A DNA stretch of 64,000 nt from an uncultured Candidatus Altimarinota bacterium (GTDB taxonomy: Bacteria; Patescibacteriota; Gracilibacteria; BD1-5; UBA2023). Positions 22,781 through 62,090 of the stretch are shown piece after piece. How positions within the stretch are numbered: the stretch's first letter is position 1; each line of letters opens with the position of its first letter. Location: NCBI GenBank assembly GCA_936941205.1, contig CAKZJF010000082.1, positions 2,536 to 66,535 of the forward strand. The letters are read 5' to 3'. A model generated the notes under the pieces. It saw nothing but the letters and a program-made list of their open reading frames with translations. It searched no databases and was not told the DNA's origin. Position numbers and translations under genes: made by a program.

Positions 22781-22796
22781 CTATGTTTTAGCTCTA

Positions 22797-32667: not shown

Positions 32668-34020
32668 ATGCAAATATTATACTATATATCGATAGCTATA
32701 TTTATATACGGTAACTATAAAATAGTTTTATCGGACTTTAGAGAGAAAAAAATACCTAATAAATATATTGTATTCTTACTGTGTCTTCTTCCTATATACT
32801 ATTGAATACTTCAAATAATGGGGGAATCTATCTCGATTCAAGAGATCTTATTACAAACACTCATTTCAATTCTCATATCATTTTTTTTATATTATTATTG
32901 AATTTGGTCTGCAGGAGATGCGAAATATGTACTTGTACTTTCTTTATTCCTTCCAAATAATGGAATTATTCCTTTTATAGGAAATATCTGACTCATAACA
33001 CTTTTCTACTTATTTGGTTATTTTCTTTATTTTTATTTCTATCGATGCTTATTTGATTGGAAATATACCAAGGAGCTATCAAATAAGGTACTATACGGAA
33101 TAAAAGAATCCATATATTCGTACATATATATTTCAGACAATAAAAAATCACTTCTTATTCGAATTATTAAATACATACTCATCTTTATTATACTCTTTGT
33201 AAGTATACGACTAGTTCGAATGTATTTGTATGAGTATTTCTTTGTTGCACGTGATAATTATGGATACATATTCGAGTTTATTAAAAATAATCCAACTCTT
33301 ATAATTATTACCATACTAGTTACCATCTTTCTAATGAATATACTTATAAGAAAGATGGTAACTATTCTAAAAGAATATATTCATAGTAAATTCTCAAAAA
33401 ACTCTTCTCACTCATATCTCAAGGATATTATCTTCCTGTTCATCTTATATATTCCATTTTGTTCATTTATATGGTATGAATATACTCTTAATCCAAATGA
33501 ACTTACATCACATATATATACCATATTCACATTCTCACTTGCCTTCTTCTTTTTTGCAAAGGTGAGTTATTATATATACACTCTAACCTTTCAGTTATCC
33601 GAAACTGAAATTATTCCGATTAAGAAACTTTCCATCGGAGATATTGTGGATAAGAATTATCTTACAAAGTTATTTTGAGATCAAAAAGCCCTATGATACT
33701 GCCATAATATCAAAAAAGTAGATGAAAATAATGAACAAAAATGACTTCTTCTCTATCCAAGACCAAAAGAATATTTTTCAAATATACATAACCCAATTGA
33801 TGAAGAAGAATGGGCGAAGCTACAAGAAATATATAAAATCGTAAATGATTATCATAGATATATTCCTTGATATGCCTCGGTAGAAAATATCAAAATACTT
33901 CGTACATTTGCTTTCTGATTTTATATATTTCTAGGTTTTCTGATAACTTACTTTCAATGAGATATCATCGCAAGAAAGATTATAACAACATTAATTCAGT
34001 TATTTCATAACAACCTTTAA
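32668..34020 (+). CDS. A24-family prepilin peptidase-like membrane protein with long extra C-terminal domain
   Basis: 450 aa. LSDFREKKIPN (first Asp motif, CpaA/TadV-like) and WSAGDAKYVL (GxGDxKL-like second Asp motif) in a polytopic N-terminal half. ORF 33220-33678 is in frame. Stop TAA 34018-34020. Confidence 0.7.
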
Positions 34021-36231: not shown

Positions 36232-37197
36232 CTATATTTCTCAAGTAATAGGAATAATAGCTGATTCTCAGAATTGTTCAAAATATATTTTTGGTATCCC
36301 CATACATTTCTGTTGATACACACACTGAGCACATTTTGTTGTTTTCATCATATTTTCATCTCAGACATTTACATCAACACCAATCGGTATCACCTCTCAT
36401 CTATTTATAACTAATTGAGAGAAAAAACAATAAGGTAACTGACAAAATCATCAAAAACCATAATCTATGGTAATATCATTATTAAAACTATGTGGATGTA
36501 AATTAATAAGTTGAACAATACAATCATAAGGCACAAGAAATTTCTTATGATTTGATTTATTTGGATATATAATAGAAAAAACTAAATGTATCCTTCATGT
36601 AAATGGTCAAAAAACCTTTTTTAGGAAAACTAAGTACTCTCAATATTGGTTATAATTATATTTATTTATAACCAAATTAAGTTTTACACTTCAATGTGGA
36701 AAGTTTTGATATAAGTGAATAATTCATTTTATTGCTTTACTATAATGAGTAGACTGAGTCAGCATATTGTATACTTTACATATATGTGAATGAAATGAGA
36801 CAAAGAATCGTATTTTATCTTTATATGGAAGGTATTTTTTTATAAATAATGGCGAGGCAAATAAAACAGCATTTGTCTGTACCTTAATAAAACAGCCATT
36901 ATGATATAAATAATCAATCAAATCATGAAATTGACTATATAAAGTTGGCTCTCATCAGGAAAGACAAAAAGTTATACTATACTCTTTATATTTGGAAATA
37001 GCATAGTTAATAATTTCCTTCAGAATCAGGAATTCAATCTCAGTTTTTGTAAGATTTGTACTACAAAAAAGACATCATTCATTGCAATATTTTGTTATGC
37101 GAATAATATATTCTATCTTATATCCTTGGATATTTATGTTTATATCCCCTATTGATCGATAATAATTAATTATTTCAAGTATCTTAATCTCAGTCAT
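36232..37197 (-). CDS. radical SAM protein, twitch/SPASM-like (island rSAM 3)
   Basis: 321 aa. ITKYCNEGCLFC, LSGGEPT (both Gly TGA), C-terminal CAQCVYQQKCMG. Confidence 0.8.
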
Positions 37198-37906
37198 ATA
37201 TTTGAATTAGGACCTGAATCTGTTTTATTTGTTCTTTAATAATTAGCCTATCTCAATATCCAAGTTTGTAATTCGATAATAGTTCATCGAGTGCATACTT
37301 ATATATTTCATATGTATTATATGGAAAAATATAGGATTCAAGAAAAGAATTCATATAAGCATTACTGGAATTAAGTAGAATTCTTGATAAATCCTTTTCT
37401 CTTGCTCATAATCAATAATCCAGTAAATCAAATATCCCAATCTGACCATGATTTAAGAAGAAATTACTGGGATGAATATTTCAATGAATATAGCTATCTT
37501 TATGAAGTATATTACAGAATAAAGCTAGTTTTTCTGGTTCAATCTGCAGAAATGATTCCATCTTACTATAATTAAGACGAATATTTTCAATCTCAGCATA
37601 GTAAAAACGATTATTTCATATTTTAATTTCTCACTTATAGTCATAAAGAGGAGTACAAATTCCTTTTTTTTGAAGAATATGAAAGTTCGCCTTCTCTCTC
37701 AAATGAAAATTACAAGATACTCACACATCAGACAAGTAATCGGAAGAAAAATAATATTTCATTACAACTTTTCCTCCTAATGGAATAACAATAAATCATA
37801 CATTTGCATATCGTATAGTACAATACTCTCAATATGTACGTCTAATAAATTGCTGTATATTGTTATCACTCTCAAGAATTTTTCGGATATACTGAAGGTG
37901 TATCAT
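37184..37906 (-). CDS. APH/choline-kinase-like phosphotransferase
   Basis: 240 aa. VVMKYY Lys, HGNIHPSNFF (HGDxHxxN-like) and IFDLLDYG (DFG-like). Overlaps both neighbours. An alternative ATG lies at 37939. Confidence 0.55.
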
Positions 37907-38930
37907 TTTGTAAAAAATATAGAATCTTATTAGTTGCATACTCTCTTCCAACAAACTCAATCCAATTCTTATAAAATCACAAGCAATATGTATTATATTG
38001 ACATCATGAACATTCTGGTAGCTTCTCTTTTTCTTTCCATAAAATTTTATAACTCTCTAGATTTCATATATTTATTTTTCTAGAAGATGTATCATCCTCT
38101 AATTTTCTTAATTTTATATATTCCAAATTCAAGATAGGCTCATGAATAATACAAAGTGGAGGAGATGTAAAGTGGAAGTCAGGGTAAATATTATTCTTAT
38201 AGCACAGTGCTAATACATCCTGTATACATCTTATTTGTTCAATAGAGTAATCTAATAAAATATCATCTTGATTTAAGAAAGCATATCAATGAGGCTGAAC
38301 AAATCAAAATGAAATCTTATACGTATTCCTTTCTCCATCATTTGCATCAGGTGTTATGAGTCTTACAAAATTACTTATAATAAGAAATTCAATATAATCA
38401 TATAATCCAAAAAGATTCATCTTAGTAATAACAATATTTAGATTAATACTTATAAGGGTATGAATATTATTTTCATATATATATTTTACCCAATCCGTAA
38501 ATTCTTGAATATTGGTATAACTTCATAATTTCTTATTTATAAAATCATCATGAGAATGATGTGCTAAAAATATATCATCTGCCCCAGAATTTATAAGATG
38601 AAATATGTAATCTTTTTCTTGAAAGAGCCGAATTCCATTTGTTTGTATTTGAATATTTCAAATTCCAATTTTTTTAGCAAGTTGAATATATTTTCACAAA
38701 TTTTTACTTAATGTTGGCTCTCATCATGAAAATGATAAAATCATATATTCACGTTCCTGAGCGGTATATTTCTTGACAAGTGAGAGGATTTGAAATATTA
38801 CCTGTCTTGAGGAAATATCATGCTTTCAAAAATTATTCGTCTTTGAAACATTACAAAATTTACATCTCCAATTACATTTATAGGTAACTCGGATAATCTC
38901 ATTGATGTAAATACGTTCGATATTTTGCAT
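37863..38930 (-). CDS. radical SAM protein, twitch/SPASM-like (island rSAM 4)
   Basis: 355 aa. VTYKCNWRCKFC, FSGGEPT (TGA TGA at 38721-38726), C-terminal CSGCQYNTYCLG. Confidence 0.8.
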
Positions 38931-39872
38931 TTAATTCAGTATTGGATTAATTTCATCAAGACCATACAGCCATTCATAGTGAATGAGTGGTCACCAACAT
39001 TTTCAGTAATACTTACAGTTATTACATTTATGACACCAAAACCTCTCTCGTGGAATATCCTCCTTTTTATCAAAAGAACCCCTATTTAATATATTTCAAT
39101 CATAGGTAATCTTCATTCTATTTTCATAGTCAAAGTCATCTGTGATTTGAATATATTTTTCTCTTTCAGTGGATGGAAAAATACAATACGGTATATCTGC
39201 AATTTTGAGATGAATATCCTTTTTCTTGCAGTATTCAATAATTGGTAAAATCTCCTTCATACATTCGGAATACTTTGGATTAATCCTTTCGAGTATATGC
39301 TCTTTTGAATAATAATCTCTCATAACATCTGGATATGTGATCGCAATATTTCTCACTCACTGGATTTCAAGAAATTTCACCAATTCAAAAAGAGAATTTT
39401 TATTATCTTGAGTAATTACTATATTTGCCTTCAAAAAATTTCATCTCCAATATTTCTTAATATTTTCAAAAACCCCATCCCAACGTACAAAATTATTGGT
39501 GCGAGAAATCTTCTGTTGTTCCTCTGATGAAATAGCTTCAACTGATAAAAACAACTCATCAATATATGGAAGAAACTTTTTTGCTTGGTTATCAATATGA
39601 AGAGTAGATGCATTCGTTGTTACTAGGATTGTGTAACCTAAAAGTTTTCATAATTTTAGTGCATCTAAGAATACTGGCTGAATAAATGGTTCTCCACCAA
39701 GATAGGTTACATGATTATATCATTCTCTCTTATACTTAAGAAGCTTCTTTAAAATATCCTCTTTTGTTACACGTATTTTCCAAGCTTTCTCCATATTTGG
39801 ATACTCGATACAATAAGTGCATTTTTGATTACATGTCCATCCAACGTAGATTTCAAGTCGTTTATGATTCAT
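38931..39872 (-). CDS. radical SAM protein, twitch/SPASM-like (island rSAM 5)
   Basis: 313 aa. VGWTCNQKCTYC, LGGEPF, IPYCIF and CHKCNNCKYYGKCWG. Stop TAA directly abuts the next ATG. Confidence 0.8.
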
Positions 39873-40771
39873 TATTTATGATTGAGATATACCGAAAAAT
39901 AATCCATAAGTGCATGAAGCTCCTTTTGTCCATCAACCTTCTGATATATAACTTTTTCAAAATCCTTCAGCACATCTCGAAAAATATTTAATTGTTTCTC
40001 CTGAATATCCGTAAGCAAGATCTCTTTTCCTTTTCAAAGAAAAAGAGGTCTTGAAAGTTTCTTTCAGAGGTATGTAGAAACTATATCACTATAGTACACC
40101 TTCTCATCAATATCAATAAAAAGTGATTCATTGATTAAGGATGTATTGTATCCATCATTTTTCATAAATCCATATAATATAATATCGTGTGCGTATGAGA
40201 AATCAAGTATCTTTTTCATTACCATGGCCAAATTAGATAAATCTTGCTTACTCCATGAGGCCGTAAAATACACAGGAAGAATATTAAATCATTTTATTCC
40301 CATTTCTATAAGTTTTAAAAACTGTTCATAGGCCATTCATTCTTTCCCCGGAGAAATTACAAGATTCATAAATAATCGATCGATAAGATTACAACTCTGT
40401 GCAATTGACATTACTTTCTCATAACAAAAATTATTTTCTTGATCAATACTAAAAAAAATTCGTGAAAAGTAGGTATCAAGTCATTTCCCTATTTCATGGG
40501 TCAGAAGACTGGTATTTGTTACGATTTCATATTCCCATGAATGATGAATATTTAATTTCTGTATAAAACTCACAATATTTTCCCAAACAATTAATGGTTC
40601 TCCGCCAAAAAATTTTACAGATCAAATGGATGATTTATTGTTTTCTAAAAAAATTGAAAGAGCTTCATATCACTGAAGAGGAAGAATTTTTCAATCCTTT
40701 ACAACATTACAGTAAGAGCAATTAAAATTACACGCGGTGGTGGTATGTATAATGATATTATATTTCTGCAT
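39872..40771 (-). CDS. radical SAM protein, core only (island rSAM 6)
   Basis: 299 aa. TTACNFNCSYC and FGGEPL. No C-terminal Cys cluster. Paralogous to 49507-50505. TAATG overlap with the next gene. Confidence 0.75.
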
Positions 40772-41582
40772 TTCGAATTTCACAATTATCAATTAAAAAG
40801 CAATGACTGCATCTTTTTTGTGTATAACATACATCGCCAGTTCAAAAGCGAAATATATCCTCCTCTCAAACTTGTCATAATATTCCATTATCAAAATCAT
40901 AATAGTTCTGGAACTTCCCAAAAAATTCTTTTGGAAATTTTACAAATGTGGCATGAACTCAAAATTTTTCAAGAGTACAAAATAGTTTATCAATAAATCC
41001 ACGATTCTCACTATAACTATATCCTAATATATCATGATATAGTTCATACGGTCTATCGTGTGGAAAATAATTTACAAAATCAAAATTCTTAATGCCATAC
41101 TGAGTAGTAAGAATGGTTATATCACGATAAATTGATTGTATATTTTGTTTATGAATATGAATAATACATTTTTGATGGAGTCATGATGTAGAAATAAATT
41201 TCATATTACAGAGAAGTTGAGCATATGAAATACCACCATTTACTATGGTAGTATGAATAGATTTATCAAATCTATGAAAATAATAACCAAGAGAAGTAAG
41301 TCAAGAATCTTGGAGCCGTGAAAGTAATGATTTTGAAAGTAAGAATGTATTCGTCAAAATCCCGATTGACCTCTTTCATTGAGACTTAGAAAATCAGATA
41401 ATCTCAAGCAAATTCGGATGAAGTAAAGGATTTCATCCATACAGTGTTATGTTTATATCTCTAGACGATTGTATTTGTTCGTATATTAAATCCGTATTTA
41501 AAAATGGCTCTCTTTTTCTATATGTCTGTTCTAAACAATAAAGACAATTATTATTGCATGTATAGGTAATTCGAATGTCCAT
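40758..41582 (-). CDS. radical SAM protein, twitch/SPASM-like (island rSAM 7)
   Basis: 274 aa from MDIRITYTCNNNCLYC. LYGGNPL. C-terminal CYTQKRCSHCFLIDNC. ATG lies 2 nt after the upstream stop. Confidence 0.75.
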
Positions 41583-41584
41583 AA

Positions 41585-42334
41585 TTATAATGCGGTAATT
41601 GGTCGTACCTGGAGGATATATAATTTTCATTTCGAAATAGTCCATTCCACATCTATTTCAAAATCATAAAAAGTTTGAAGCCTAGATAGTTCCGATATGA
41701 GTAATCCTTCCCATTCTAAGGTTAATGAATTATTTTCTTTTTCATAAATATATATATCTAGGTTTTCTCAAATATATTTATATTGAATATTTTTCTTATG
41801 TTCGATAATGGTATAATTCTTGCTGAGAAAGAGTTTATTCGCTTTTACGACACCATCAACGAGAAATTGATTACATCATTTAATATATTCTATAAGTCTT
41901 CCGTTATTAAAATTGGAGAAGTAGACTCATGATACCTCTCATATAATAAATTCCTGAATCAATACATTCATTTTTCTTTTTTCAAGAACTTTTCAAGTAA
42001 TCTTAATTTCATATTCATCTAAAAAATCATTTTCCACTGATTGAAATACATCCAAAATATCATTGTGTAATAGTTTTTCTGAAATTCTTCATTCAATAGA
42101 TTCAAATAAACCAGCATAGGAAAGTTTCATACTATCCTCATTACTCATAGAGGAACGACATATATAATATTCCGTTCACACTATATTCATATAATCGGTG
42201 TAAATATCTTCATTTATATCTTCTTTCTCTGTTATCATAAATCATCGAGGAATATAAAAAGCATCTTTAATTTTTAATAAATTAAGTATTTTTCAACCAA
42301 CACTCTTTTCTAGATTGATTTGTGAGTAATTCAT
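41585..42334 (-). CDS. PPDK_N-like (PEP/pyruvate-binding, ATP-grasp type) domain protein
   Basis: 249 aa. VGGKILNLL..IPRGF near the N-terminus and KLYILQVRPIT at the C-terminus, the two hallmarks of the PEP-utilising enzyme nucleotide-binding domain. Confidence 0.55.
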
Positions 42335-43560
42335 TATCATATTCTTTTTATAAATCAAGTATTAAAATTAATTTCGATAAGATCATTATTTTCTAATCAG
42401 AAGAAGTAATCAATTCAGACTGAATCAATATATCTCATTCATAATTCTTTTGAAATAATTTTATAATGACTCGTATGAATACTATCATCTTCAACTCAGG
42501 AACAAGAAAGTAAATATTTAAATTTATAAATATATGGAATTGAAGAATTTATATCTTTATTTCAAATCAGTACAATATATTTATCAAAATGATATTTAAT
42601 ATTAAATATATCTTCTATTTTTATAGCAAATAAAGACACTACTCTATTTTCCTGAATTCAAACATTAGAAAGATAGGATTCTCAAATTTGAGTTCTTTTA
42701 CCTGAACTTATATCTACGGAAAGAAAGAAGTTAACATCATAATCTGCAATTCATTGATAATACTTATTTATATACTGACTTTGAATAGTTTCATTTTTTA
42801 GAGGCTTAAATAAATGAAATTCAAAATGAATAGAAATCTTTAAATCATTTATTAGTTTTTCAAAACGTTTTTGGTAAATATAATTTTTAAATAATAAATT
42901 TGGCAAAAGCTCTTTTGAATTTCTATATTTTTTCGTATCTAGAAAATAAGTATTAAATATATCTTTTCAAAAAAAATATATTTTCGTTCTATCCAAAATT
43001 TTTTTACTCACTCAGCAAGATATATCATCATATATAAATATAGGGGATACTAAAAAATCATTTTTTGTAAATCAAATACTATTCAAAAAATTTCCTATTA
43101 AAATAAACTTTTCGTTAATTTCATACTTTCAAATTATTTCTGAAGAAAATGATTTTGGTAAGAAATCTTTTTCCGAATGCTTCAAACATGTAAAAGAATA
43201 ATCACAAGTATAACATTCACTATGATTTATTTGTAAACTCCATGTATAAAATAAATACATTTTATTTAATAGATATTTTTCTATTAAATATCTCTCTTTT
43301 ATAATGCAATATGGAAAATTAACTAAATGAATAATAAATCAATTTTCATTTAGTCTATAATAAAGTTTTTCCAGTAGGTAAATAAAAGAGTTTCAAATAT
43401 AATCTAATATCTTTTTTTCTTGTTTTAAAGTATATATTATAATAATTTTTGTATGACTCAGCTTTTCTATTTTTTTAATATAATTAAACAGGAAATATTC
43501 AAAATCTTTTGTTGAAGAAAAAATATCGATATTTAACTTGAATATTTTTCGTTTTATCAT
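42334..43560 (-). CDS. hypothetical protein, paralogue A: rSAM-auxiliary-like Cys domain + possible ATP-grasp-like domain
   Basis: 408 aa, whole frame checked line by line. NFPYCII and ECYTCDYSFTC resemble the C-terminal domains of neighbouring rSAMs, but there is no CxxxCxxC core. Ends ..IEINFNTGFIKRIG. Confidence 0.7.
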
Positions 43561-44801
43561 ATTCGCTTAATGAATCAAGTAAAAAAATTAGCCTCAATGT
43601 TTTGGCCAGTTTCCAATCAATAAAAAATTCCTGTTCATATATGATCAATATATTGAGCACCTATTTCATTAAATATGATCTTATAATGTGCTAATTCTTC
43701 AAGTCTATTATATGAGAGAAAATATTTAAATTTATATATTTCAGGAATATATAAATTTAAATCATGTTCAAAAAATAATACTAAATATTTCTCAAAATTA
43801 CTTACAACTTTATTTATATCACTCAATGTTACAATTTCCAAAACAATTTTACAATTATTTGTATAATGATTTATATTGGATCTTCATTGTATCTCCATTC
43901 AAATATCAGTCCTTTTTTTAAAAACTAATTCTTCCATGAGATGTAATGAAATATTCTTCTTTCTTTGAAATCAATAATTAATCCCATTGTACTGTGTAAT
44001 TCCTATTTCATCTCATTCAATATTATAGGATTTATCCTTATATAGTTCCCTATCAAAATCCGTATAACTTAGGAATATAGATAATCCCAATTTTTTCAGC
44101 AATCTGTTGAATCTATTTTGCAATAAATAATTTCTAAAAAAAAGATTTGATCTTACTCATGAAACCATATTTTCTGTGTCAATAAAATAATTTTCATAGC
44201 TCACTCAATTCAGTCAATCAATAAAAAGTTCAATCTTATGCATTAAATCCGTATTCATTTCTTCAAAATCCGTATTCAATTCAAATAAGAAATCAAAATA
44301 AATATTCTTCCTTGGAATTCATATATTCTCAAAGAAAAGCAATATCATATCAATTTTATTAAGAAATTGATTTTTTTGAATGGTTAAACAATCAAAACTC
44401 TGTACAAAGTGGGAGTTATATCAAGGACAAGAAAAATAATATTTACATTTGTAACACTTATTATGGCTCTTAGGAAGAACATAAATTTTATTTAAAAACA
44501 CCTCATTTATAAAATATTTTTTTATAATATCTTCATTTCTTGTTATACAGTAAGGAATATTTAAAAATTTAATTTTAATATTATTTCTACTAATGAATTG
44601 CTCGATACGTCATAACTTAGGGATTAATATATCGATAATATATGAAAAAATATGTATATCTCTCTTAAGGGTATAAATAATAAAACCGTTTTCTTGAGTG
44701 GGATATGCTTTCTTTAAAACTCTAAAAAAAAATAATTCAAACGAGGCTATTGATTGGAAATCATCAATATTTACTCTGATGGTGTTACTTTTATTATTCA
44801 T
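43554..44801 (-). CDS. hypothetical protein, paralogue B of 42334-43560
   Basis: 415 aa. ORFs 43635-43841 and 44610-44801 are in one frame. NIPYCIT and KCYKCKYYFSCPG. Ends ..IEANFFTGFIKRIG. Confidence 0.7.
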
Positions 44802-46176
44802 TACAGATCTTATTACTAATATGAGCCAGTGGATCTAATTTATCGTATCCACCATTATATATATTTGCATCCATTCTGCTTCATCCACGACATTTTTCTT
44901 TATGTAAGCAATCACTGCACTCCTTTGGAAGAAAACCATTATTTAACATTTTTTGCACGTATTCACCACTCCAAACTTCACCAATATCATGATCAAAAAT
45001 ACTTCATAAATTTGAATCAAATGCAGACATTATCTGAATATTTCCATCGGTTGTAATGATAGTTTTAACATTATGACTTTCTGATAATTCACCATCTATC
45101 ACAGAACCTGCAACTTCCAAATTTTTCATTACACAAAAAGGGACACTATCAACAATTTTATAATTTACCCCATATTGGTGATTGAGTTTGTATAATTTAG
45201 CAAGGGCAAGAGTAATCATTTCACGACTAATTCACTTGGTTGTTCCTGTCGAGTATAATCGAAAAAAATGCCAATTTTCTAATTGAAATTTATTACAAAC
45301 ATATGCGTATATCTGGCTTAAATGTATTATATTTTTTGGTGTAAGAATCGTAAGAAAATCAAGAGTAATATTTTTAAAATTTACTATCTTTTCAAGTTGG
45401 AAAATTTTTTGATCATATTTGGTTTTGAATGTTTCCAATCCAGTAATTCACTGAATATTATAGGCACCTTGTTTATTAATCGTGTAATAGTCATCATTAT
45501 TAAATTCATGCATAGAGACCATAAGATTGACTGAAAAATTTTCATTTAATCGCTCAAGTGTTTTATCAAATAAGAGAGTTCAATTGGTATTTATGCGTAT
45601 AAATATACCCTTATCACGTATATATTCTAATAAATCAAATAAGAAATTAGCAGAAAAAGGCTCTCAACCTGTAATTATAATATCACGAGTACCTGCTATA
45701 TAAAGTTTATCTATAATATTTTTGTATTCTTGTAATCAGAGTCATTTTCGAAAATTACGATCTTTTAACGGATAGTCATAATCATTGAAACAGTAGTTAC
45801 AAAATAAATTACATTTACTCGTAATAGTTAATACAACTCCAAATGGAATTAATTTTAATTTATTCTTCTCTTGAAAAAAGTGAAAATCATGAATATCTGT
45901 TTGAGATAAAAGAGTAAATACTTCCCTTCCAATATCATCCAAAGAAGAAGTTATTATCCAGTTTTTTATAGTAAATTCAGGAAGTTCCGTGGAAAAAAAA
46001 TCTCTATGTGTAAAATATACGCTTTGATATTGAAAAGTATGAATATCTTGAAATACAACTTCTATACATCCATTTTCTTTCTCAATAATTCTAGAAATCT
46101 TATATCGAGTCAACAATATCCTATCATAAGAGATGGAAGGAAATAATACGAGCGAGTAGAAAATTTTTGTAATCAT
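44794..46176 (-). CDS. radical SAM/SPASM-like maturase-type enzyme with about 105-aa N-terminal extension
   Basis: 460 aa. ORFs 45004-45219, 45232-45438 and 45742-46176 are in one frame. TSKCNLFCNYC, ITGGEPF, PFCV.., and ECSDCLHKEKCRGGS (CX2CX5CX3 with the last Cys replaced by Ser). Confidence 0.8.
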
Positions 46177-46183
46177 GACTAAC

Positions 46184-48253
46184 TTATGATATTAACTGAT
46201 GTAAAATTTCATAGTACTTTATAATTATATAATTCATATTTTTAATACATTGTTGTAATTTCATATCTGAACTATTTAAATCTCAAGAGAAATTATAACT
46301 TATATTTTTATACGAAAAATATCGTCCTTCTTTTTTTTGATCGAAATATATATGTACTATATAGTTATTTCATCATAAGTATAATTTATAGGAGAAGCGA
46401 TTATGAAATGAAAATGTAAATGCTACATCTATATCTGAGAATAAAAGATGAGAAAATTGTTTCCATTTTCGCAAATACTCTACCCTCTTCTCTTGAGAAT
46501 CTATACAAATTTTCAAAAGATTCTCAGAAAAATGAAATACACATTCTTCTTGTATCTTCTTATGTTTTTTCGTAATAAAAAAATCACCAAAAATCAGAGC
46601 ATCAAGATGAGTGGAAAGAAACAAATTCATAGCCTCTTGAGGTGTTTCAACTATAGGTTCAGACTTTACATTTAATGATGTATTAATAAGAGCTGGTACT
46701 CATGTTTTCTTGTAAAATATACTTATAAGCTCATGAATTCTCGGATTCTCATTTTTATTTACAGTCTGATATCGTACAGTTCAATCAACATGAGTGACTC
46801 CCGCTAAAAAAGAAATTTTTGACGGCAGAACAACTGAAGATAAAGTCATATATGGACTTTTTATCTGAACAGAAATATATTCTTGGAAATATTCCTCAAG
46901 CATAATTGGAGCCAATGGTCTCCAATTCTCTCGACTCTTTATTGTATTTACTCATAGATTATTTTCTCGAAGCATTGGAGAGGCTAGTATACTTCTATAT
47001 CAAAGTGCTCGGGGTCAGAATTCTGAAGAACCATGAAAGCATCAAATGATTTTATTTTCAATTAGATTATTTACAACAATTTCTGGATTATAGGGTATCA
47101 CTTCTATTAAATCAGATACATTATTGATAACTTCTTGAAAAACATGAACAGAGTAATTCTTGCCAATATTTGGAAAATAATGAATCTTTCCTTTTTGAGA
47201 ATTATCTTCATTCTCTATTATATAATATAAGAAATATAATCATCAGAGAGCAATTCACTGATCTCATACCGCAGATTGAACAAAAATATTTTCAAAACCA
47301 CATTCTTGAAGTAAGATAGTATTAGCTAAAACATTCAGTCCAACTCATCATGCAATGCATATATTTTTTGATTGCGTAAGAATTTGAGCCCTATTTCAGA
47401 GGTATCGAATTGCTTTTTCAGTATGAAATTGTAAATGTGCAGCAATATCAGCAAATATTGATGCAGTAATATCATCCTCTTTTTTCTTATAGTCTCATTG
47501 TGCTATCTTATAAAGCTGTATAAGATATTCCTTCATTTCATGCAATTGAATACCTTTTTTGAAAAAATAAACATCTTTTCACAAATATGAAAACAATTCT
47601 ATATCGGAAAATCGATTCTTATCTCCATACGCAGATAGCCCCATAACACTTCAAGATTCAAGTCATATAAGATCGGAAATCATTTCATAAGTTGCCCCTA
47701 CTCCATATATTCCAATACCTTCATCCACCTCCATCCCCTCTATAAATTGTATTTTCCTGTTTTCACCATAATAAATAGATTGTGTCATGTTAATTCCATT
47801 CAATCAACCCTCACCATCATATCAACTTGAATCTAAAACTAAAATAGCAGAATCACAAAAAGAGGAAGAAAAATATGAACTCATTCCATGGAGGAGATGG
47901 TGCTCTTCGAAAAATCAATATGGCTGAAGAAAATCCGTATTATTTAAATATCTCCAGTTTTGATATACTGAATATATAAATGGATAATCAATAAAATAGT
48001 TCTCATCAATGTTAATTCCAAGTCAAATTATTGTAAAGTTCTCATAATTTCAAATTATGGAAAATAAATAATCTAATCATCTATAAAAATATTGCTTCTT
48101 TATAAATTCATTTGATTCTTCGGGAATTATACAATGTTTGAGTCGTGCAAGTCTTTCTAATTCAATCCCATACAGCTTTCATTGAAAGAACATTACAATA
48201 GAAGGATCATGTTCAACATTGGCAAGACAGATGTATATTTTTTCTCTTTCCAT
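46184..48253 (-). CDS. carbamoyltransferase (NodU/CmcH/TobZ family) with C-terminal extension
   Basis: 689 aa. GLSAYGD, HGSSEFGPRALGYRSILA, RENWRPLAP and NTSLNVKSEPIV motifs (frames spot-checked). ORF 46373-46630 is in frame. Confidence 0.8.
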
Positions 48254-48254: not shown

Positions 48255-49526
48255 CTATATTAAATTCTTAATAATATGTGCTATTTTTGATGTCTCTCAG
48301 ATTAACGCATTTCGAATATTTTCAGAATGGATATCCTTTCCGAGATCAATCTCCATACCTTCCACAATATGATTCACCAATGTATGGAGAAAATTATACG
48401 ACAAAAGTGGGAGAGATAAGCTTTTGGGTGTGTATGCCCAACTCTTCAGTAGTATAGTAATATTCTTTTGAATACAAGGATTCTTACAATAAGCAATATC
48501 AATACTTATAAGAAACAAAAGAGTGTAAATAAATGTTACAATAAGTGGAGCAGTATTTATTTTATTAAAATCTACTATATATACCTTTGAATCTTTTCAT
48601 AAAAAATGACATATGTCCAAATTAAAATATGTATATGTATGCGTAAGTATTGGATTATTGAATAAATTTTCCACATCTAGAATAGAATCATAATCTCATG
48701 GCATCATTCATAATAATTGATTTATATCATCAATAGTACATGATCGTTGTATAGAAAAAATTGTTTGTAACTTAAAAATTTCAAGTAGAAATTCTTGCTT
48801 ATTTCCATAAAGATATTTGAGTGTTACTGGCTTTGCATCTAAAAAACTAAAGCCAGAGAAATAGTATGGCAAGCCATTGAAGTTTTTCTGAATAATATAG
48901 CATTCTTGTGGTATATTCATGTGTGCCAATTGAAATATACTATATCAATTCATAACATTCACTACATCTGAAAAACGATGAAAACACCCTTTAATAATGT
49001 ATCGTTTCATTTTATATACCCCAATATAATCATTATATAAAAACTTAAACTCTGAATTTGAATCAAATACCCTATAAAGACATTCTGTCAATTGCGTAAA
49101 TCCTTCTTCTCATAAATAAAAGAAGTGCTGTCTTAACTCGCACTCGTAAAAATGCAATATTTTATTTTTCTTTGTAAAATATATACTATTTTCGATTCTC
49201 AACATATCTTCCTGGATTTTTTGCTCTATTCAATTCGGTACATACTGTAAGATATTCATACTAGCAATAGAAATTCATCTTCCAATAAAAAAATTCCTGA
49301 TTACATTCGTACAGATTTCCAAAAGATTCTTATGAATTAATGTATTATATATTAGTAGTAATTCTGTATCTTTTATTTCAAAAATAAGAAGTCATGTATT
49401 GTCTTTTTTTAGAAAAATACAATTGTATGCAAAAAAAATATTTATATTTAAAACTCCGAGTTTCTCATACAATATATAGGAAAGCTCAGAACTCCAGAAT
49501 GTCTCATTATTTAGAAATTGTATCAT
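48255..49526 (-). CDS. hypothetical protein (423 aa), possibly kinase-fold
   Basis: ORFs 48297-48518 and 48708-48929 are in one frame with ATG 49526 and TAG 48255-48257. The weak VYIVDFNK segment is the only hint of function. Confidence 0.6.
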
Positions 49527-50531: not shown

Positions 50532-51416
50532 TTATTCTCAAGAAACTATCTGGCTCATAAAATCTTGAATTCAGGCAACAAAATCTGAATTATTTCTATC
50601 CCTTATGTCAAGTAGAGATATTTGACCTTGCCAATATCATGTGGGGTTCTTTATCATACCAATAGGCGCAAATATACTATCGTATATTGGAAAAAATCAA
50701 TCTAAATAACGATTACAATGATTTTCATCAGAAAAAGCAAGAATATGAGACTTTCAAAGAGTTTCAGCTAATTTCTTCATGTAATAAAAGGCATACTTAT
50801 GGAGTCTCAACTTTTTTATTCCACCATATTTTTTATAATAGTCATTGGTGTATTGTAAATTTGAGATAAAGAGTGTTTGTTCTCAGATATATAAACTGAA
50901 TCAGAAAATCTTTATTCAATGGTCTCGTATTTCAAAAAATAAAGAATTACTTGAATCATGCCAATCCTTCGCTCATTGAAAAATATGAAATTGCAAACTA
51001 TATCATTTTACAAGAAAGCTACAAGTATATTCTTCCTTAAGAGGAAAATGATTTATATGATATAAAAATATATCATATAAATCAAAGTAGAGTACATTCT
51101 TACTCCTATGCCAATGATCAATTAAAAGAAATATTTCTCAAAAATGAAACGCTTTCATAATCTCTATAATACGATCTTTGTATATTTCATATGTTTGGAG
51201 ATTTTTAAGAATTATTTCCTCTTTTTCAGAAGCATAGTTATCATAATTCAGTACTATCAAAAAAAATCGAAAAAATTCTTTTTCAAATTTATAAATCTCC
51301 GGCATTCAAGAAAAAAAATCCCTACCAGTTACTGTTTTTAAAAAGAGTAATGTTTTCTTAAAATCTGCACTATCCACGGTACTAAGAATTCAGTCTACTA
51401 GTTTCTTATTATCCAT
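50532..51416 (-). CDS. hypothetical protein (294 aa)
   Basis: ATG 51416 and TAA 50532-50534. Frame spot-checked in three places. No family recognised. Confidence 0.6.
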
Positions 51417-52698
51417 ACAAACGATTTCTTTTATAATAATAATCAAGAAATAATTTTGAATATAATTCGAGTTCATCCATCGTAAATCATAAATCAGTCC
51501 ATCGCTTTAGTAAATAGATTTTCCGTTTTTGAAATATAGCATCATCTATTAAGTAAAGATTCAAGATATCATTTTCCAAATCTGTTGAAATATTCATTCT
51601 TATATTATCATTTTCTCGTACAAATAATGAATCATAGTACTGAGTAAAAGTATTAAATTTAGCACTATTCTCTTGAGTAAAAGCAAATATATTGAATGGA
51701 ATTCATCTACGAAGATTATCACTCATAAAAGAGAGATAATTATCAATCTCACTTAAAGAATATCCGTTGAGTATTTTTTTATTCTGCTTCCAGCTACCAT
51801 AGCTTACATCTTCATATGCAATAACTCATGGTATATATGACGTAGCTGAAAGTCCTATTCATACTATAGCTGTATTATTAGTTTTTCTTTCCTCTATCTC
51901 CCTTCTATGGGTATCAAACAGTCATAAAAATTTTCCATCAATATATGTATCTACTATTTTAACTGCTTTTTTTGAAGTGCTAATATAATACTTGCAAAGA
52001 TCAAGAAATTTATCTTTTCAATATTTTCCAAGAAAAATATTCGCAAATCCTGTTTTAATAGAAATATCCCATCGATTAATCTCCAGATTTACATCTAAAC
52101 CATGATTTTTAATCTTTTGTCATGCAGCGTAAATATATTCTAGATCATTTATGAGATCATCTAGGGTCATAGATGGAAGATTATACATAAGATCAAATGA
52201 TATCTTCTTAAATCCACACTCAATAGCCTGATTAATAGCCATATCTAATTTCGTTTTACTAAACTTTCTATTATTATATCTATTCACCTTTTCACTTGTA
52301 GTTTGCACTCCAAACATAATATCTGTAACACCAAAATCCTTCAAAATATGAAGCGTATTTGAAGTTAAGTAAAATGGATGAATCTCTACTTGCCAACTGT
52401 AACCTTCAGATAAAGAAAAATTTTCAAGTATTTTTGTGGACATCTCCCTAATCTCCTCATCAGATGCAAGATTAAAAGTTCCTCATCCAAAATATATTGA
52501 ATCAAGTGGTTTTTTAATAACAGTTGAATATTTTTCCAATTCTTGAAGCATGTAGTCTCTATATATCTTTGTATCGGTTTCATTCACCCGAAGAAGCGCC
52601 TCACAATCACAATAATTACAGCGAGTATCACAGTATATACTATGGATATAAAGTTGCAAGAATCATTCCTTCTCATTATATAAATTCCATTTATTCAT
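51409..52698 (-). CDS. HemN-like radical SAM protein (coproporphyrinogen dehydrogenase / class C methylase fold)
   Basis: 429 aa, frame verified line by line. LYIHSIYCDTRCNYC, IYFGGGTF and GVTDIMFGVQT. An in-frame upstream ATG at 52824 is an alternative start. Confidence 0.75.
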
Positions 52699-53834: not shown

Positions 53835-53909
53835 GGTGCCATGGCAGAGTGGTTATGCGGGAGTTTGCAAAGCTCCATACATCGGTTCGATTCCGTTTCG
53901 GCACCTCCA
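53835..53909 (+). tRNA. tRNA-Cys (anticodon GCA)
   Basis: Closely parallels E. coli tRNA-Cys. D loop agtggtta, anticodon stem ggagt/gctcc with loop ttGCAaa, T loop ttcgatt, discriminator T plus CCA. One irregular position at the T-stem/acceptor junction. Confidence 0.8.
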
Positions 53910-55143: not shown

Positions 55144-56127
55144 TTATTTATCAAAAAATTGTTCACAAACATTGCAACTATAGCAGTCTTTTGGACATTT
55201 TCTGAGTTTAGCAAAAAAAGAGAGTCGAGTTAATTTATCATTATCAATGTAAGGGATATTTTGATATGGAAAATCAATAATATCTTTTAAATCTCCATGA
55301 TAAGTTCAAGCTATATATGCATCTAACATTTTTCTAATTCGCTCAGTTGATTCTGGTCTTGTATCCAATTTAAATACATCAACAATATCTTGATAATGAA
55401 TAAGATCTTCTGGTCGAATAAACGGTGCTCGAAAAATTAATTTTCGATTCTTGTGAACCATTGGCACACAAGAATAATCTTCAATTAAATTATACTTTCC
55501 ATTGTGAATTCTCTCTTCTGTATTGTAATCCACCCGATGTGCAGCAATATTAAAATGTGTATGTCTATATGGGCAGTTAGAAAAACATCCTTCATTTAAT
55601 AGCATTTGAATTGGAAGTCATGTTCGATCTTTTATATTTTTTATCAATTCAATATCTCGATTTATATCTCGATCAATCGTTAAAATATCAATTCATAAAT
55701 CTTTAAAATATATTGCCTGTTCTACGGATTTTAAATAACAATTAATTGACGAATAAATAATAATCTTAGGAAGTGCTTTTCGAAAAAAGGGAGCATATAA
55801 CATGTTAGTCAGTGTGATTGAGGTTAATCATCGCATATGAAGCTTTTTTATGAATTTTATAAGCTTCAACATATGAAATTTATCTCAGGTATTTTCACCC
55901 TCACAGGTTGCATTCATTATCAAGATGGTATCTATCCCATATTTATTACATGTATCAATTACAGAATATAATGCAACCTCTTCATAATCATTCATCTGTA
56001 TTTCATCTCTTCATGAATTTCCAAGAGAATATGGTAATGGTAAATACACTGAACTAATATGATCCTTATAATCATCTATGAGGGCAAAAAAATCGGGCTT
56101 CTGATTAAATCAAATGGAGAATTTCAT
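55144..56127 (-). CDS. U32-family-like protein (TIM-barrel with Cys motifs)
   Basis: 327 aa. ORF 55305-55605 is in frame. Layout ..IYSSINC..LGIDILTIDRDIN..IQMLLNEGCFSNCPYRH parallels the U32 E.F.HGALC....G.C region but is diverged. C-terminal CPKDCYSCNVC. Confidence 0.45.
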
Positions 56128-61334: not shown

Positions 61335-62081
61335 TTAATCACATCATCCATCAAGAAATAAAGTTGTACCATTTACAAATGAGGAATCATCACTTGCCAA
61401 AAATATAATTGACTTAGCAACCTCTGTAATCTTTCAGAATCTTCAAAGATATATTGTATTGTCATCATCCTCTGAAGAATCTCATGTTGGATTTTCATAA
61501 TCTCTGTTATCAATATTACCAGGGGCAATAGCATTTATTCGAATATTTGGTCAAGCAATTTTTGCAAATTCTTTTGTAAGTACAATGATTCAAGCCTTGG
61601 AAATATCATAATCAATAAGGTCTGATGAAAAATGTTTTATTCCCTGAAGCGATGAAAGATTAATAATTTTTCATCAAATAATTTGTCTATCCAGCATTCG
61701 TCTTAAAACATACCGTGTACACAAAAATGTACCAAGAAGATTGGTATCTATGGTTTTTTTCCATTGTTCAACGGTTCTTTCAAAAATGGGAACTTCCTGA
61801 GAAAATCATGCATTATTTATACAAATATCTATTTTTCCAAATTGTTCTATTACTCAATCTACCATGGATATAACATCTCATTCTATGGAAACATCACATT
61901 TCACAGCTATAGCATGTCATCATAATCGAGATATCGTATCCACCACAACAAATGCTTCTTTCTCGGAAGTAAGATAGGTAATAACTACCTGTGCTCCTTC
62001 TTTTCAAAAATATAAAGCTGTTGCCCTTCATATTCAACGAGCACCACCAGTAATCACGACTATTTTCCCTTGAAATTGCAT
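61335..62081 (-). CDS. short-chain dehydrogenase/reductase (FabG-like)
   Basis: 248 aa. VITGGARGIGRATA (two Gly are TGA), NNAG, YDISK (YxxxK) and IAPG. Confidence 0.85.
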
Positions 62082-62090
62082 ATAAAACTA

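What the first reader, a model, noticed from the sequence alone, without database searches (positions are those of the whole stretch)
41585..44801. Tandem paralogues that keep the rSAM auxiliary Cys domain but lack the rSAM core, next to a PPDK_N-like protein
Seen: 42334-43560 and 43554-44801 encode 408- and 415-aa proteins. Their first 130 aa or so contain N(F/I)PYCI and Cx2Cx5C motifs like the C-terminal domains of the neighbouring rSAMs (compare IPYCIF and CHKCNNCKYYGKC in 38931-39872), but there is no CxxxCxxC. Their C-terminal halves end in the same IE(I/A)NF.TGFIKRIG. The duplication carried the junction too, since both are followed by gaatATGATAA. Downstream is a 249-aa protein with GGK..NL and LYILQVRPIT (PPDK_N hallmarks). 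Inference: orphan Fe-S or substrate-binding modules fused to an ATP-dependent (ATP-grasp-like) domain. I have not seen this architecture described. The ATP-grasp assignment is weak.
Basis: partly seen in the sequence, partly recalled or inferred. Interest (0 to 1): 0.7.

Follow-up and report, generated by a model that had tools for sequence, protein, structure and literature searches.

The report
Split dikinase with rSAM-derived Cys domain
Two tandem genes and the small ATP-binding gene after them most likely form a split, ATP-driven phosphate-transfer enzyme whose phosphate-carrying subunits have borrowed a four-cysteine domain from a neighbouring radical-SAM enzyme, a combination not described before and seen here only in Gracilibacteria.

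Summary
Genes 43554-44801 (A, 415 aa) and 42334-43560 (B, 408 aa) on the minus strand are full-length paralogues (32% identity, E 3e-47). The next gene, 41585-42340, is a stand-alone PPDK_N ATP-grasp protein.

Residues about 1-130 are homologous to the C-terminal four-Cys domain of the neighbouring HxsC4-like radical-SAM enzyme g38931 (hhalign 94%, E 1.5e-7). They have no CxxxCxxC motif.

No part of A or B is ATP-grasp-like. The last 80-100 residues are a very divergent PEP-utilizer 'swivel' phosphohistidine domain with an invariant His. The evidence is hhalign 91.7%, E 7.7e-7, and rifampin phosphotransferase as the top two Foldseek hits in the PDB. Pfam and NCBIfam do not detect it.

In 7 of 7 independent loci a family gene lies next to a stand-alone PPDK_N gene. 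The best reading is a split dikinase of the PpsAB/HpeHI/rifampin-phosphotransferase type, in which one or two His-carrier subunits share one ATP-grasp subunit. It sits in an operon rich in radical-SAM genes and linked to sugar-nucleotide genes. The substrate is unknown.

The family is tiny (19 representatives among 1.84 billion proteins). The two named genomes that carry it are both Gracilibacteria. I rate it a new variant of a known kind.

The parts
43554..44801 (-). Gene A (g43554), 415 aa under code 25: rSAM-derived four-Cys domain, orphan middle domain, C-terminal swivel-His domain. 14 TGA (Gly) codons.
   Evidence: orthologues at 45-54% identity in L001, L005, L006
44412..44801 (-). Gene A residues 1-130: domain homologous to the last third of an HxsC4-like rSAM enzyme (beta-alpha units plus the Cys motif). 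No CxxxCxxC.
   Evidence: hhalign 93-94%, E about 2e-7, with shuffled and Cys-masked controls. AF2 pLDDT is about 80-96 over most of this part.
44427..44549 (-). Gene A four invariant cysteines: C85 (in NIPYC) and C116-x2-C119-x5-C125. Candidate ligands for one metal or Fe-S site.
43848..44411 (-). Gene A residues 131-318: orphan middle domain with the conserved NLFFKNYIxQKxF motif. Presumed to contribute to substrate binding.
   Evidence: No Pfam or PDB similarity. Conservation.
43557..43847 (-). Gene A residues 319-415: divergent PEP-utilizer swivel (phosphohistidine) domain.
   Evidence: hhalign 91.7%, E 7.7e-7, 75 columns. Controls. Foldseek top hits are RPH 5fbu and 5fbt.
43686..43688 (-). 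Gene A His372 (CAT): predicted phosphocarrier histidine. Invariant in all 22 members that include this region.
42334..43560 (-). Gene B (g42334), 408 aa: paralogue of A with the same three-domain layout. 16 TGA (Gly) codons.
   Evidence: orthologues in L001 and L005
43186..43308 (-). Gene B four invariant cysteines: C85 (in NFPYC), C116, C119, C125.
42337..42645 (-). Gene B residues 306-408: swivel (phosphohistidine) domain with the motif TSHYKIISKELGMRYID.
42466..42468 (-). Gene B His365 (CAT): predicted phosphocarrier histidine.
41585..42340 (-). g41585, 251 aa: stand-alone PPDK_N ATP-grasp (nucleotide-binding) component. It ends right after LQVRPITAL and has no His domain of its own.
   Evidence: PF01326 E 2e-20. 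NCBIfam PEP synthase/PigC N-terminal parts. hhalign against PpsA 124-340: 96.4%, E 1.3e-9. Motifs GGK, RSSMSNED, DVEW, LQVRPIT.
43554..43560 (-). A/B junction ATGATAA: the start codon of B overlaps the Gly(TGA)-stop(TAA) of A, which suggests translational coupling.
42334..42340 (-). B/PPDK_N junction ATGATAA: the same 7-nt overlap.
38931..39872 (-). g38931, HxsC4-like rSAM enzyme. Its C-terminal domain (about residues 150-298, IPYCIF ... CHKCNNCKYYGKCWG) is the closest relative of the N-terminal domain of A and B.
   Evidence: NF038332 E 2e-20; hhalign 94%, E 1.5e-7
44794..46176 (-). g44794, rSAM enzyme with a SPASM-like C-terminus. It is the conserved upstream neighbour of the dikinase genes.
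   Evidence: synteny
40758..41582 (-). g40758, rSAM enzyme and conserved downstream neighbour. The likely start is the third Met at 41582, 2 nt after the PPDK_N stop.
46184..48253 (-). g46184, NodU/CmcH-type carbamoyltransferase. It is in the same operon and is conserved in L001, L005, L006 and L010.
   Evidence: Carbam_trans_C E 1.7e-58

Best explanation
Genes A and B together with g41585 encode a split (multi-component) ATP-dependent dikinase. It belongs to the same mechanistic class as PEP synthase, rifampin phosphotransferase (RPH), phenylphosphate synthase PpsAB and HpeHI.

g41585 is the ATP-grasp component. A and B are two alternative substrate-binding/phosphocarrier components. Each carries a C-terminal swivel domain with an invariant His (His372 in A, His365 in B).

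Inferred mechanism, by analogy with PpsAB, HpeHI and RPH: the ATP-grasp presents ATP. The swivel His attacks the beta-phosphate, and the gamma-phosphate is released as Pi. The His~P domain then swings back to the protein's own N-terminal and middle domains and phosphorylates a bound substrate, giving AMP, Pi and phospho-substrate.

The substrate-binding part is new. Residues 1-130 derive from the last third of an HxsC4-like radical-SAM (rSAM) enzyme and keep a four-Cys site, probably an Fe-S or metal site, but have lost the SAM-cleaving core. Residues 131 to about 310 are an orphan domain.

The donor-like rSAM enzyme (g38931) is in the same operon. I infer that A and B bind the same kind of intermediate as these rSAM enzymes, most likely a sugar or sugar-nucleotide-derived small molecule. 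I also infer that A and B phosphorylate two different positions or two successive intermediates.

Shown: the domain homologies, the invariant His and Cys residues, and the conserved gene pairing. Inferred: phosphotransfer itself, Fe-S binding, and the nature of the substrate.
For: 1. Swivel domain by profile comparison. The family C-terminal profile (22 sequences) against 6 authentic swivel domains gives hhalign probability 91.7%, E 7.7e-7, over 75 columns, with the family His on the catalytic His. Controls: 200 column shuffles score 9.2 +/- 1.8 (max 17.9) against a real score of 39.8. Reversed alignments score 7.5 and 9.4. The other family regions score about 9.

2. PDB sequence search. hmmsearch of that profile against all PDB sequences puts PEP synthase 8a8e residues 437-481 (the His motif) second. 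The whole family against full-length E. coli PpsA matches best at residues 391-454.

3. Structure. The AF2 model has pLDDT 80.7 and pTM 0.79. The top two Foldseek hits in the PDB are rifampin phosphotransferase 5fbu and 5fbt (E 1.4e-3 and 3.2e-3, probability 1.00). These are followed by dehydratase reactivases 2d0o and 1nbw, which I recall as having swivelling domains, and by PPDK 5lu4.

4. The partner protein. g41585 is PPDK_N only. All 7 orthologues end at or within three residues of the LQVRPI motif with no His domain, so they need a His domain in trans.

5. Gene pairing. In 7 of 7 independent loci a family gene is adjacent to, and usually overlaps, a stand-alone PPDK_N gene. This includes members at only 24-28% identity and a locus with a different gene order, P0017-PPDK_N-P0019. 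PPDK_N identity falls in step with the family: 60-68% in the close loci and 35-42% in the distant ones.

6. Precedent. Two-component dikinases with a separate ATP-grasp protein and a protein that combines a substrate-binding domain with a C-terminal swivel His are characterised experimentally (PMC12167813).

7. N-terminal domain homology to the g38931 C-terminus.
Against: Pfam, NCBIfam and plain HMM-against-PDB searches do not detect the swivel domain at significant E-values.

The Gly-Gly of the T/S-x-x-G-G-x-x-x-H loop, described as a key element that orients the His (PMC12167813), is absent. The loop length also varies among family members.

There is no detectable similarity to the rifampin-binding-type substrate domain of the known two-component dikinases.

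The Foldseek E-values are modest, and the model was built from sequences that carry Trp in place of TGA-encoded Gly.

No substrate can be named. Fe-S binding rests only on four invariant Cys. No biochemical data exist for any member.
Confidence: 0.65

Rival explanations
1. The machinery is the same, but it works as a PigC/RedH/HapC-type activating ligase. His~P phosphorylates a carbonyl or hydroxyl oxygen only transiently. The phosphate then leaves during a condensation, elimination or rearrangement, possibly set up for or by the neighbouring radical-SAM or carbamoyltransferase enzymes, so no phosphorylated end product accumulates.
For: One of the two best NCBIfam hits of g41585 is the prodigiosin ligase PigC (3.9e-18). 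The setting is a biosynthetic operon, not a catabolic one. Domain evidence is the same as for the best explanation.
Against: PigC-type enzymes are single chains with their own central domain, and nothing here resembles that domain. Sequence alone does not distinguish transient from stable phosphorylation.
Confidence: 0.17
2. A and B are protein-directed phosphocarriers or regulators. This would resemble EI/PTS relays or the PPDK-derived protein kinase VadK. The rSAM-like N-terminal domain would dock onto, or mimic part of, the neighbouring rSAM enzymes, and the His~P would modify or regulate a protein rather than a small molecule.
For: The N-terminal domain is a copy of a domain of an enzyme in the same operon. 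Swivel domains do serve protein phosphotransfer in EI. A PPDK-derived kinase that regulates a metabolic pathway is reported (PMC13400623, listed; abstract only read).
Against: The closest structural match is the small-molecule kinase RPH. The split architecture matches small-molecule dikinases (PMC12167813). No HPr-like acceptor was identified in the operon genes scanned.
Confidence: 0.08
3. The swivel-like domain is a degenerate relic with no phosphotransfer. A and B are scaffolds or substrate chaperones for the rSAM enzymes, and g41585 acts on its own or with another partner.
For: The canonical GG loop is lost and the loop length varies. The domain is invisible to Pfam.
Against: The His and the following I-[IV]-x-[RK]-E-[IL]-G helix are conserved across members down to about 24% identity. 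A stand-alone PPDK_N has no known activity without a His domain. Pairing is strict in 7 of 7 loci and the two partners diverge in parallel.
Confidence: 0.07
4. One reading: orphan Fe-S or substrate-binding modules fused to an ATP-grasp-like, nucleotide-binding C-terminal half.
For: The system is ATP-linked through the neighbouring PPDK_N gene.
Against: The N-terminal, middle, C-terminal and whole-family profiles score 11.7-14.7 (probability 0.3% or less) against the PPDK_N orthologues, while the positive control gives 96.4%. The C-terminal part matches the swivel domain instead.
Confidence: 0.03

Closest known systems
Two-component small-molecule dikinases: HpeHI (Rhodococcus), CreHI (Corynebacterium), phenylphosphate synthase PpsAB (Thauera). 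Source: PMC12167813.
   Same: The layout is split in the same way. One protein is a stand-alone PPDK_N ATP-grasp. The other combines a substrate-binding region with a C-terminal swivel domain whose catalytic His lies within about 50 residues of the C-terminus. The genes are adjacent. The expected chemistry is ATP to AMP + Pi + phospho-substrate through a His~P intermediate.
   Different: The substrate-binding part is unrelated. Here it is an rSAM-derived four-Cys domain plus an orphan domain, about 310 aa in total, in place of the RIF-binding-like helical domain of roughly 450 aa. The GG loop before the His is missing. The ATP-grasp is smaller (244-257 aa against about 340-360). Often two His-carrier paralogues share one ATP-grasp. 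The context is a biosynthetic operon rich in rSAM genes, not aromatic catabolism. The host is Gracilibacteria, which use code 25.
Rifampin phosphotransferase RPH (PDB 5fbs, 5fbt, 5fbu, 5hv1; PMC4844700)
   Same: It is the best structural match in the PDB for the model. Its swivel His domain is also at the extreme C-terminus, after the substrate-binding domain.
   Different: RPH is a single chain with the ATP-grasp fused at the N-terminus. Its rifampin-binding domain has no detectable counterpart here.
PEP synthase / pyruvate phosphate dikinase
   Same: The ATP-grasp (PPDK_N) and swivel phosphohistidine modules are homologous. The motifs RSS..ED, DxEW and LQxRP are kept in g41585.
   Different: There is no PEP/pyruvate-binding TIM-barrel domain. 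The proteins are split. There is no regulatory Thr-containing GGxT(S/C)H motif.
HxsC / HxsC4-like radical-SAM enzymes (TIGR03977, NF038332), represented here by g38931 and g34017
   Same: Residues 1-130 of A and B align colinearly with the last 150 or so residues of g38931. The alignment includes P-[YF]-C and C-x2-C-x5-C-x-G.
   Different: A and B lack the CxxxCxxC SAM-cluster motif, the GGE motif and the first two thirds of the barrel. They cannot be radical-SAM enzymes.
Prodiginine ligases PigC / RedH / HapC
   Same: They use PPDK_N and swivel modules for ATP-dependent activation inside a biosynthetic pathway. g41585 hits the PigC model at 3.9e-18.
   Different: They are single-chain enzymes of about 880 aa with a different central domain. 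They have no Cys domain.

Membership tests
Two-component (split) PEP-synthase/RPH-type dikinase | A separate ATP-grasp (PPDK_N) protein with no His domain | tested here: met
   g41585 is PF01326 E 2e-20 and 251 aa, and ends right after LQVRPITAL. Its 7 orthologues are 244-257 aa and end at or within three residues of the LQVRPI motif.
Two-component (split) PEP-synthase/RPH-type dikinase | A partner protein with a C-terminal swivel (PEP-utilizer mobile) domain | tested here: met
   hhalign 91.7%, E 7.7e-7, with clean controls. Foldseek top hits are RPH 5fbu and 5fbt, probability 1.00. The Pfam PF00391 HMM itself does not hit.
Two-component (split) PEP-synthase/RPH-type dikinase | A conserved catalytic His within about 50 residues of the C-terminus | tested here: met
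   His365 of 408 and His372 of 415. The His is invariant in all 22 members that cover the region and aligns to the catalytic His.
Two-component (split) PEP-synthase/RPH-type dikinase | The T/S-x-x-G-G-x-x-x-H glycine-rich loop before the His (PMC12167813) | tested here: not met
   The S/T is mostly kept (FKYF[LI]S). The GG is absent, and the spacer between the S/T and the His varies in length.
Two-component (split) PEP-synthase/RPH-type dikinase | A RIF-binding-like substrate domain N-terminal to the swivel domain | tested here: inconclusive
   There is no sequence similarity. The Foldseek TM-score of about 0.2 normalised to the query suggests that only the swivel part superposes. The aligned residues are not shown by the tool.
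Two-component (split) PEP-synthase/RPH-type dikinase | Genes for the two components are adjacent or co-operonic | tested here: met
   7 of 7 independent loci, mostly with overlapping stop and start codons.
Two-component (split) PEP-synthase/RPH-type dikinase | Catalysis of ATP + substrate to AMP + Pi + phospho-substrate through His~P | not testable with these tools
   This needs biochemistry.
Radical SAM superfamily | A CxxxCxxC SAM-cluster motif and a GGE motif in a partial TIM barrel | tested here: not met
   The only conserved Cys are C85, C116, C119 and C125. There is no Radical_SAM or Fer4_12 hit.
SPASM / twitch auxiliary-cluster domain | A match to the SPASM model, or the seven-Cys CX9-15GX4C ... 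CX2CX5CX3C pattern | tested here: not met
   None of 22 N-terminal domains hits PF13186 at E up to 10. Only four Cys are present (P-x-C ... CX2CX5C). The match to g44794, the one rSAM here with a weak SPASM hit, is weak (E 0.011).
SPASM / twitch auxiliary-cluster domain | Structural superposition on solved SPASM or twitch domains | tested here: inconclusive
   No rSAM structure is among the top 50 whole-chain Foldseek hits.
C-terminal Cys domain of HxsC/HxsC4-like rSAM enzymes | Profile homology to the post-core region with P-[YFL]-C ... C-x2-C-x5-C-x-G | tested here: met
   g38931 group: 94%, E 1.5e-7. g34017: 3e-4. rSAMs that lack the motif score at noise. Shuffled and Cys-masked controls support the result.

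The most novel reading that the evidence does not exclude
The four-Cys domain binds a [4Fe-4S] cluster and does more than hold the structure together. A and B would then be Fe-S-containing phosphocarrier subunits that share a substrate-binding module with the radical-SAM enzymes of the operon and work in a complex with them. ATP-driven phosphorylation would install a leaving group on a sugar-type intermediate and would be coupled directly to radical chemistry. This would be a first mechanistic link between swivel-His dikinases and radical-SAM enzymes. It would also be an example of a radical-SAM accessory domain recruited as an independent substrate-recognition module.
Probability: 0.2. Interest if true: 0.8.

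Novelty: new variant of a known kind. Interest (0 to 1): 0.55.

Why it matters
Split swivel-His dikinases were recognised as a subfamily only recently, and so far only in aromatic catabolism. This finding would extend the class to a biosynthetic operon rich in radical-SAM genes, in an uncultivated reduced-genome lineage.

It shows a new way of building the substrate-binding subunit, by copying the C-terminal Cys domain of a neighbouring radical-SAM enzyme. It also shows one ATP-grasp subunit serving one or two phosphocarrier paralogues.

It assigns a testable function to a protein family that has no Pfam or NCBIfam annotation and to a 'PPDK_N-only' protein that would otherwise be mis-annotated as a truncated PEP synthase.

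There is a practical lesson as well. Public protein databases hold these proteins translated with code 4 (Trp at every TGA-encoded Gly), which lowers search sensitivity and the quality of structure prediction.

Tried and rejected
Table-11 ORF calling gave only fragments. I switched to code 25.

Pfam and NCBIfam scans of A and B, full-length and per domain, found nothing.

HMM profile searches against PDB sequences:
- Full-length: 0 hits.
- C-terminal domain: only a sub-threshold PEP synthase hit, E 1.4.
- N-terminal domain: noise.
- Middle domain: noise.

Pairwise BLAST and phmmer of the N-termini against the cluster rSAMs were only marginal (E 0.003 and 2e-4 in a tiny database). Profile-profile comparison was needed.

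The first AF2 model, from 10 sequences, was poor (pLDDT 60.5), and its Foldseek search gave nothing significant. It was replaced by the 25-sequence model.

I used the code-4 database versions P0001 and P0007 as stand-ins, so the models carry Trp at TGA positions.

ATP-grasp similarity of the C-terminal halves was tested and rejected.

A RiPP reading was considered. There is no precursor-like small ORF and no intergenic room in the operon. It is not excluded, since a precursor could lie elsewhere.

No tRNA reading UGA lies in the window. Code 25 therefore rests on TGA at conserved Gly positions and on taxonomy.

Model coordinates are not exposed. I could not measure Cys-Cys distances or run a domain-only structure search.

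Literature searches for Gracilibacteria or Absconditabacteria radical-SAM clusters found nothing relevant.
Full report
**1. Genetic code and the observation**

When TGA is read as a sense codon, the summed length of ORFs of 150 aa or more in the window rises from 3,109 to 27,165 aa.

The TGA codons fall on conserved glycines. Examples are the radical-SAM (rSAM) GGE motif (SxxEP, TGxEP, FFxGEP) and the GGK motif of PPDK_N. TGA is therefore Gly (code 25), not Trp.

TGA is in fact the main Gly codon in these genes: 14 TGA against 7 GGN in gene A, and 16 against 2 in gene B. The only two species-representative genomes that carry the family are both Candidatus Gracilibacteria, a lineage known to use code 25.

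- Gene A, 43554-44801(-), encodes 415 aa. Gene B, 42334-43560(-), encodes 408 aa.
- They are 32% identical over their full length, E 3e-47.
- Both carry N(I/F)PYC and Cx2Cx5C and have no CxxxCxxC.
- Both end in NF.TGFIKRIG.
- Both are followed by gaatATGATAA, where the next start codon overlaps the Gly-stop of the preceding gene.
- The next gene, 41585-42340(-), is a 251-aa PPDK_N protein, PF01326 E 2e-20.

**2. How rare the family is**

Word-indexed searches of 5.8 billion proteins found 10 relatives. An exhaustive HMMER search of 1.84 billion cluster representatives found 19.

All of these are rich in Trp at positions where the window has TGA. They therefore come from TGA-recoding organisms and were translated with code 4. 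None has a Pfam domain on record.

Of 185,579 species genomes, 2 carry the family.

**3.

The motif pair P-[YFLK]-C ... C-x2-C-x5-C-x-G occurs at the C-terminal end of six rSAM enzymes in the operon and at residues 83-127 of A and B.

I compared a profile of 23 family N-termini with an alignment of HxsC-like rSAMs from the window and from L001.
- The result was hhalign probability 93.4%, E 2.4e-7, score 51. Family positions 51-123 aligned to the post-core region.
- One hundred column-shuffled decoys scored 12.4 +/- 2.1, maximum 18.
- The reversed profile scored 14.1.
- With the four Cys columns masked, the score was still 22.8.
- Greedy extension aligned family residues 4-125 colinearly with g38931 residues 151-298.

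Tested against each rSAM type separately, the signal is graded:
- g38931 (HxsC4-like): 94%, E 1.5e-7
- g34017: E 3e-4
- g34959 and g37863: E about 2e-3
- rSAMs that lack the motif: noise

The domain therefore looks like the last third of a g38931-like rSAM enzyme that has lost the SAM-cluster part.

I could not show that it is a SPASM or twitch domain. None of 22 members hits PF13186, and no rSAM structure is among the top 50 Foldseek hits. Fe-S binding is an inference from four invariant Cys.

**4.

Reading the sequences, TSHYKIISKELGMRYID (B) and LAHYKIIFNEIGAQYID (A) resembled the TSHAAIVARELGIPAV phosphohistidine motif of PEP-utilizing enzymes. I tested this as follows.

- Reference set. 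I took authentic swivel-domain sequences from E. coli PpsA and PtsI and from PDB alignments of 2ols, 8a8e, 9dae and RPH 5fbs, and aligned them (A4).
- Profile against profile. The 22-sequence family C-terminal profile (A3) against A4 gave hhalign probability 91.7%, E 7.7e-7, score 39.8, over 75 columns. That spans essentially the whole domain, with the invariant family His on the catalytic His.
- Controls. Two hundred column shuffles scored 9.2 +/- 1.8, maximum 17.9. Reversed alignments scored 7.5 and 9.4. The family N-terminal and middle regions scored 9.2 and 9.1.
- Independent sequence support. hmmsearch of A3 against all PDB sequences ranked PEP synthase 8a8e residues 437-481 (the His motif) second, although at E 1.4. 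The whole family against full-length PpsA matched best at residues 391-454.
- Structure. A second AF2 model, from 25 sequences, reached pLDDT 80.7 and pTM 0.79. Its top two Foldseek hits in the PDB were rifampin phosphotransferase 5fbu and 5fbt (E 1.4e-3 and 3.2e-3, probability 1.00). These were followed by dehydratase reactivases 2d0o and 1nbw, which I recall as having swivelling domains, and by PPDK 5lu4.
- ATP-grasp test. No part of A or B resembles an ATP-grasp. Scores against the PPDK_N orthologues were 11.7-14.7, while the positive control (PPDK_N orthologues against PpsA 124-340) gave 96.4%, E 1.3e-9.

**5. Pairing with PPDK_N**

g41585 and its six orthologues are 244-257 aa. They keep the motifs GGK, RSS..ED, DVEW and LQVRPI, and they stop at or within three residues of the last motif. 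They therefore have no His domain of their own.

In seven independent loci, a family gene is adjacent to such a gene and usually overlaps it:

| Locus | Arrangement |
|---|---|
| Window | A-B-PPDK_N |
| L001 | A-B-PPDK_N |
| L005 | A-B-PPDK_N |
| L006 | A-PPDK_N (no B) |
| L007 (L008 is the same) | P0017-PPDK_N-P0019 |
| L009 | P0021-PPDK_N |
| L010 (L011 is the same) | P0016-PPDK_N |

The last three loci hold members at only 24-28% identity to A. Adjacency thus survives deep divergence and a change in gene order.

PPDK_N identity falls in step with the family, from 60-68% in the close loci to 35-42% in the distant ones. The most conserved core is a g44794-like rSAM/SPASM gene, then one or two family genes with one PPDK_N gene, then a g40758-like rSAM gene.

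**6. Mechanism**

The architecture matches the experimentally characterised two-component dikinases HpeHI, CreHI and PpsAB (PMC12167813). In these, an ATP-grasp protein presents ATP to a second protein. The C-terminal swivel His of that second protein is pyrophosphorylated on the beta-phosphate, loses the gamma-phosphate, and then phosphorylates the substrate bound in the same protein. RPH is the fused, single-chain version.

I therefore propose that g41585 together with A and B is a split dikinase with two alternative His-carrier and substrate subunits.

It differs from the known subfamily in these ways:
- The GG loop before the His is missing, and the loop length varies.
- The substrate-binding part is not RIF-binding-like. 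It consists of the rSAM-derived Cys domain plus an orphan middle domain with a conserved NLFFKNYIxQKxF motif.
- The ATP-grasp is shorter.

**7. Context and substrate**

The genes sit in a run of 18 co-directional genes (53715 down to 34017), packed with overlaps or gaps of 26 nt or less.

The wider 30-kb cluster contains:
- About 15 rSAM-type genes. Ten have HMM support. Five are called from the CxxxCxxC and GGE motifs or from paralogy.
- A NodU/CmcH-type carbamoyltransferase.
- A weakly Bud32-like kinase.
- At the far end, an SDR, a PIG-L deacetylase and a PseB/CapD-type 4,6-dehydratase.

There is no room for a precursor-peptide gene, and no candidate. A modified sugar or glycan-type small molecule is the most likely product, but this is an inference. 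The substrate of A and B is unknown.

**8. Verdict**

- The system is best filed as a new variant of a known kind. It works like a split PEP-synthase/RPH-type dikinase and meets most defining features that could be tested. It fails the GG-loop motif and has a novel substrate-binding module.
- No paper in the searchable library describes it.

Noticed in passing
window 1-64000: The whole window uses genetic code 25 (TGA = Gly), and TGA is the dominant Gly codon in the cluster genes. Every public database copy of these proteins is translated with code 4 (Trp at each TGA), which weakens homology searches and structure prediction.
   Followed up: yes
window about 32000: There is a sharp composition shift. 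GC is 0.33-0.39 in 1-32000 (giant surface proteins and housekeeping genes) and 0.21-0.31 in 32000-64000 (the rSAM cluster), with a steadily negative GC skew. I did not test whether the cluster is a horizontally acquired island.
   Followed up: no
window 1955-6838(-), 7070-10894(-), 27251-32467(-), 20173-21546(-): These ORFs encode very large proteins (1627, 1274 and 1738 aa) and one of 457 aa. Three of them (1627, 1738 and 457 aa) show repeated Cys-rich and Thr/Ser-rich modules and N-terminal signal-like segments, and look like cell-surface proteins. This comes from reading the translations only; they were not scanned.
   Followed up: no
window 56137-57252(-), 57431-58684(+), 58695-60002(-), 60024-61325(-): Four more rSAM genes lie here. 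Three are close paralogues of about 417-435 aa with an N-terminal extension of about 190 aa before the CxxxCxxC motif. One of them is on the opposite strand. Pfam reports only the Radical_SAM core. Two were identified only by motif and paralogy.
   Followed up: partly
window 61335-63744(-): A sugar-nucleotide module sits at the end of the cluster: an SDR (adh_short_C2, E 1.7e-56), a PIG-L family deacetylase (E 4.6e-23) and a Polysacc_synt_2 (PseB/CapD-type) dehydratase (E 6.3e-77). It points to a sugar-derived pathway product.
   Followed up: partly
window 53835-53909(+) and 18267-18350(+): A tRNA-Cys(GCA) gene lies inside the cluster, on the opposite strand, in the only sizeable intergenic gap (201 nt). 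A tRNA-Leu(CAA) gene lies in the left half. No tRNA reading UGA is in the window.
   Followed up: no
window 37184-37939(-): g37184 (251 aa), inside the operon, has only weak Bud32/RIO-type kinase hits in NCBIfam (best E 0.0025) and no Pfam hit. It may be a second, unrelated small kinase in the pathway.
   Followed up: partly
window 48255-49526(-), 50532-51476(-), 55144-56127(-): Three further operon proteins (423, 314 and 327 aa) have no family hit in the libraries scanned: both for the 314-aa protein, Pfam and NCBIfam for the 423-aa one, and Pfam only for the 327-aa one. The 327-aa protein ends in a Cys-rich CPKDCYSCNVC motif. g48255 and g50532 have no counterpart in L001, L005 or L006.
   Followed up: partly
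L001 8715-9992, L005 2527-3801, L006 8689-9966: The related loci carry an extra rSAM gene of 424-425 aa between the g44794 orthologue and gene A. The window lacks it.
   Followed up: no
L006 9977-11967; L007 678-4203: The copy number and order of the His-carrier genes vary. L006 has A only, with no B. L007 has PPDK_N flanked by two divergent family members, P0017 and P0019.
   Followed up: yes
window 40758-41645(-): The first-ATG call for the rSAM gene g40758 overlaps PPDK_N by 61 nt. The 273-aa orthologues and the Met at 41582 (2 nt after the PPDK_N stop) suggest that the true start is 41582. Similar first-ATG overlaps (-137, -77 and -68 nt) at g36232, g37184 and g50532 may also be start-codon miscalls.
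   Followed up: partly
window 21240-26224 and 32668-34020(+): The chromosomal context is ordinary: a PHO4 phosphate transporter, a GatA-type amidase and histidyl-tRNA synthetase. A 450-aa membrane protein with a Peptidase_A24 (prepilin peptidase) N-terminal domain converges on the end of the cluster.
   Followed up: partly
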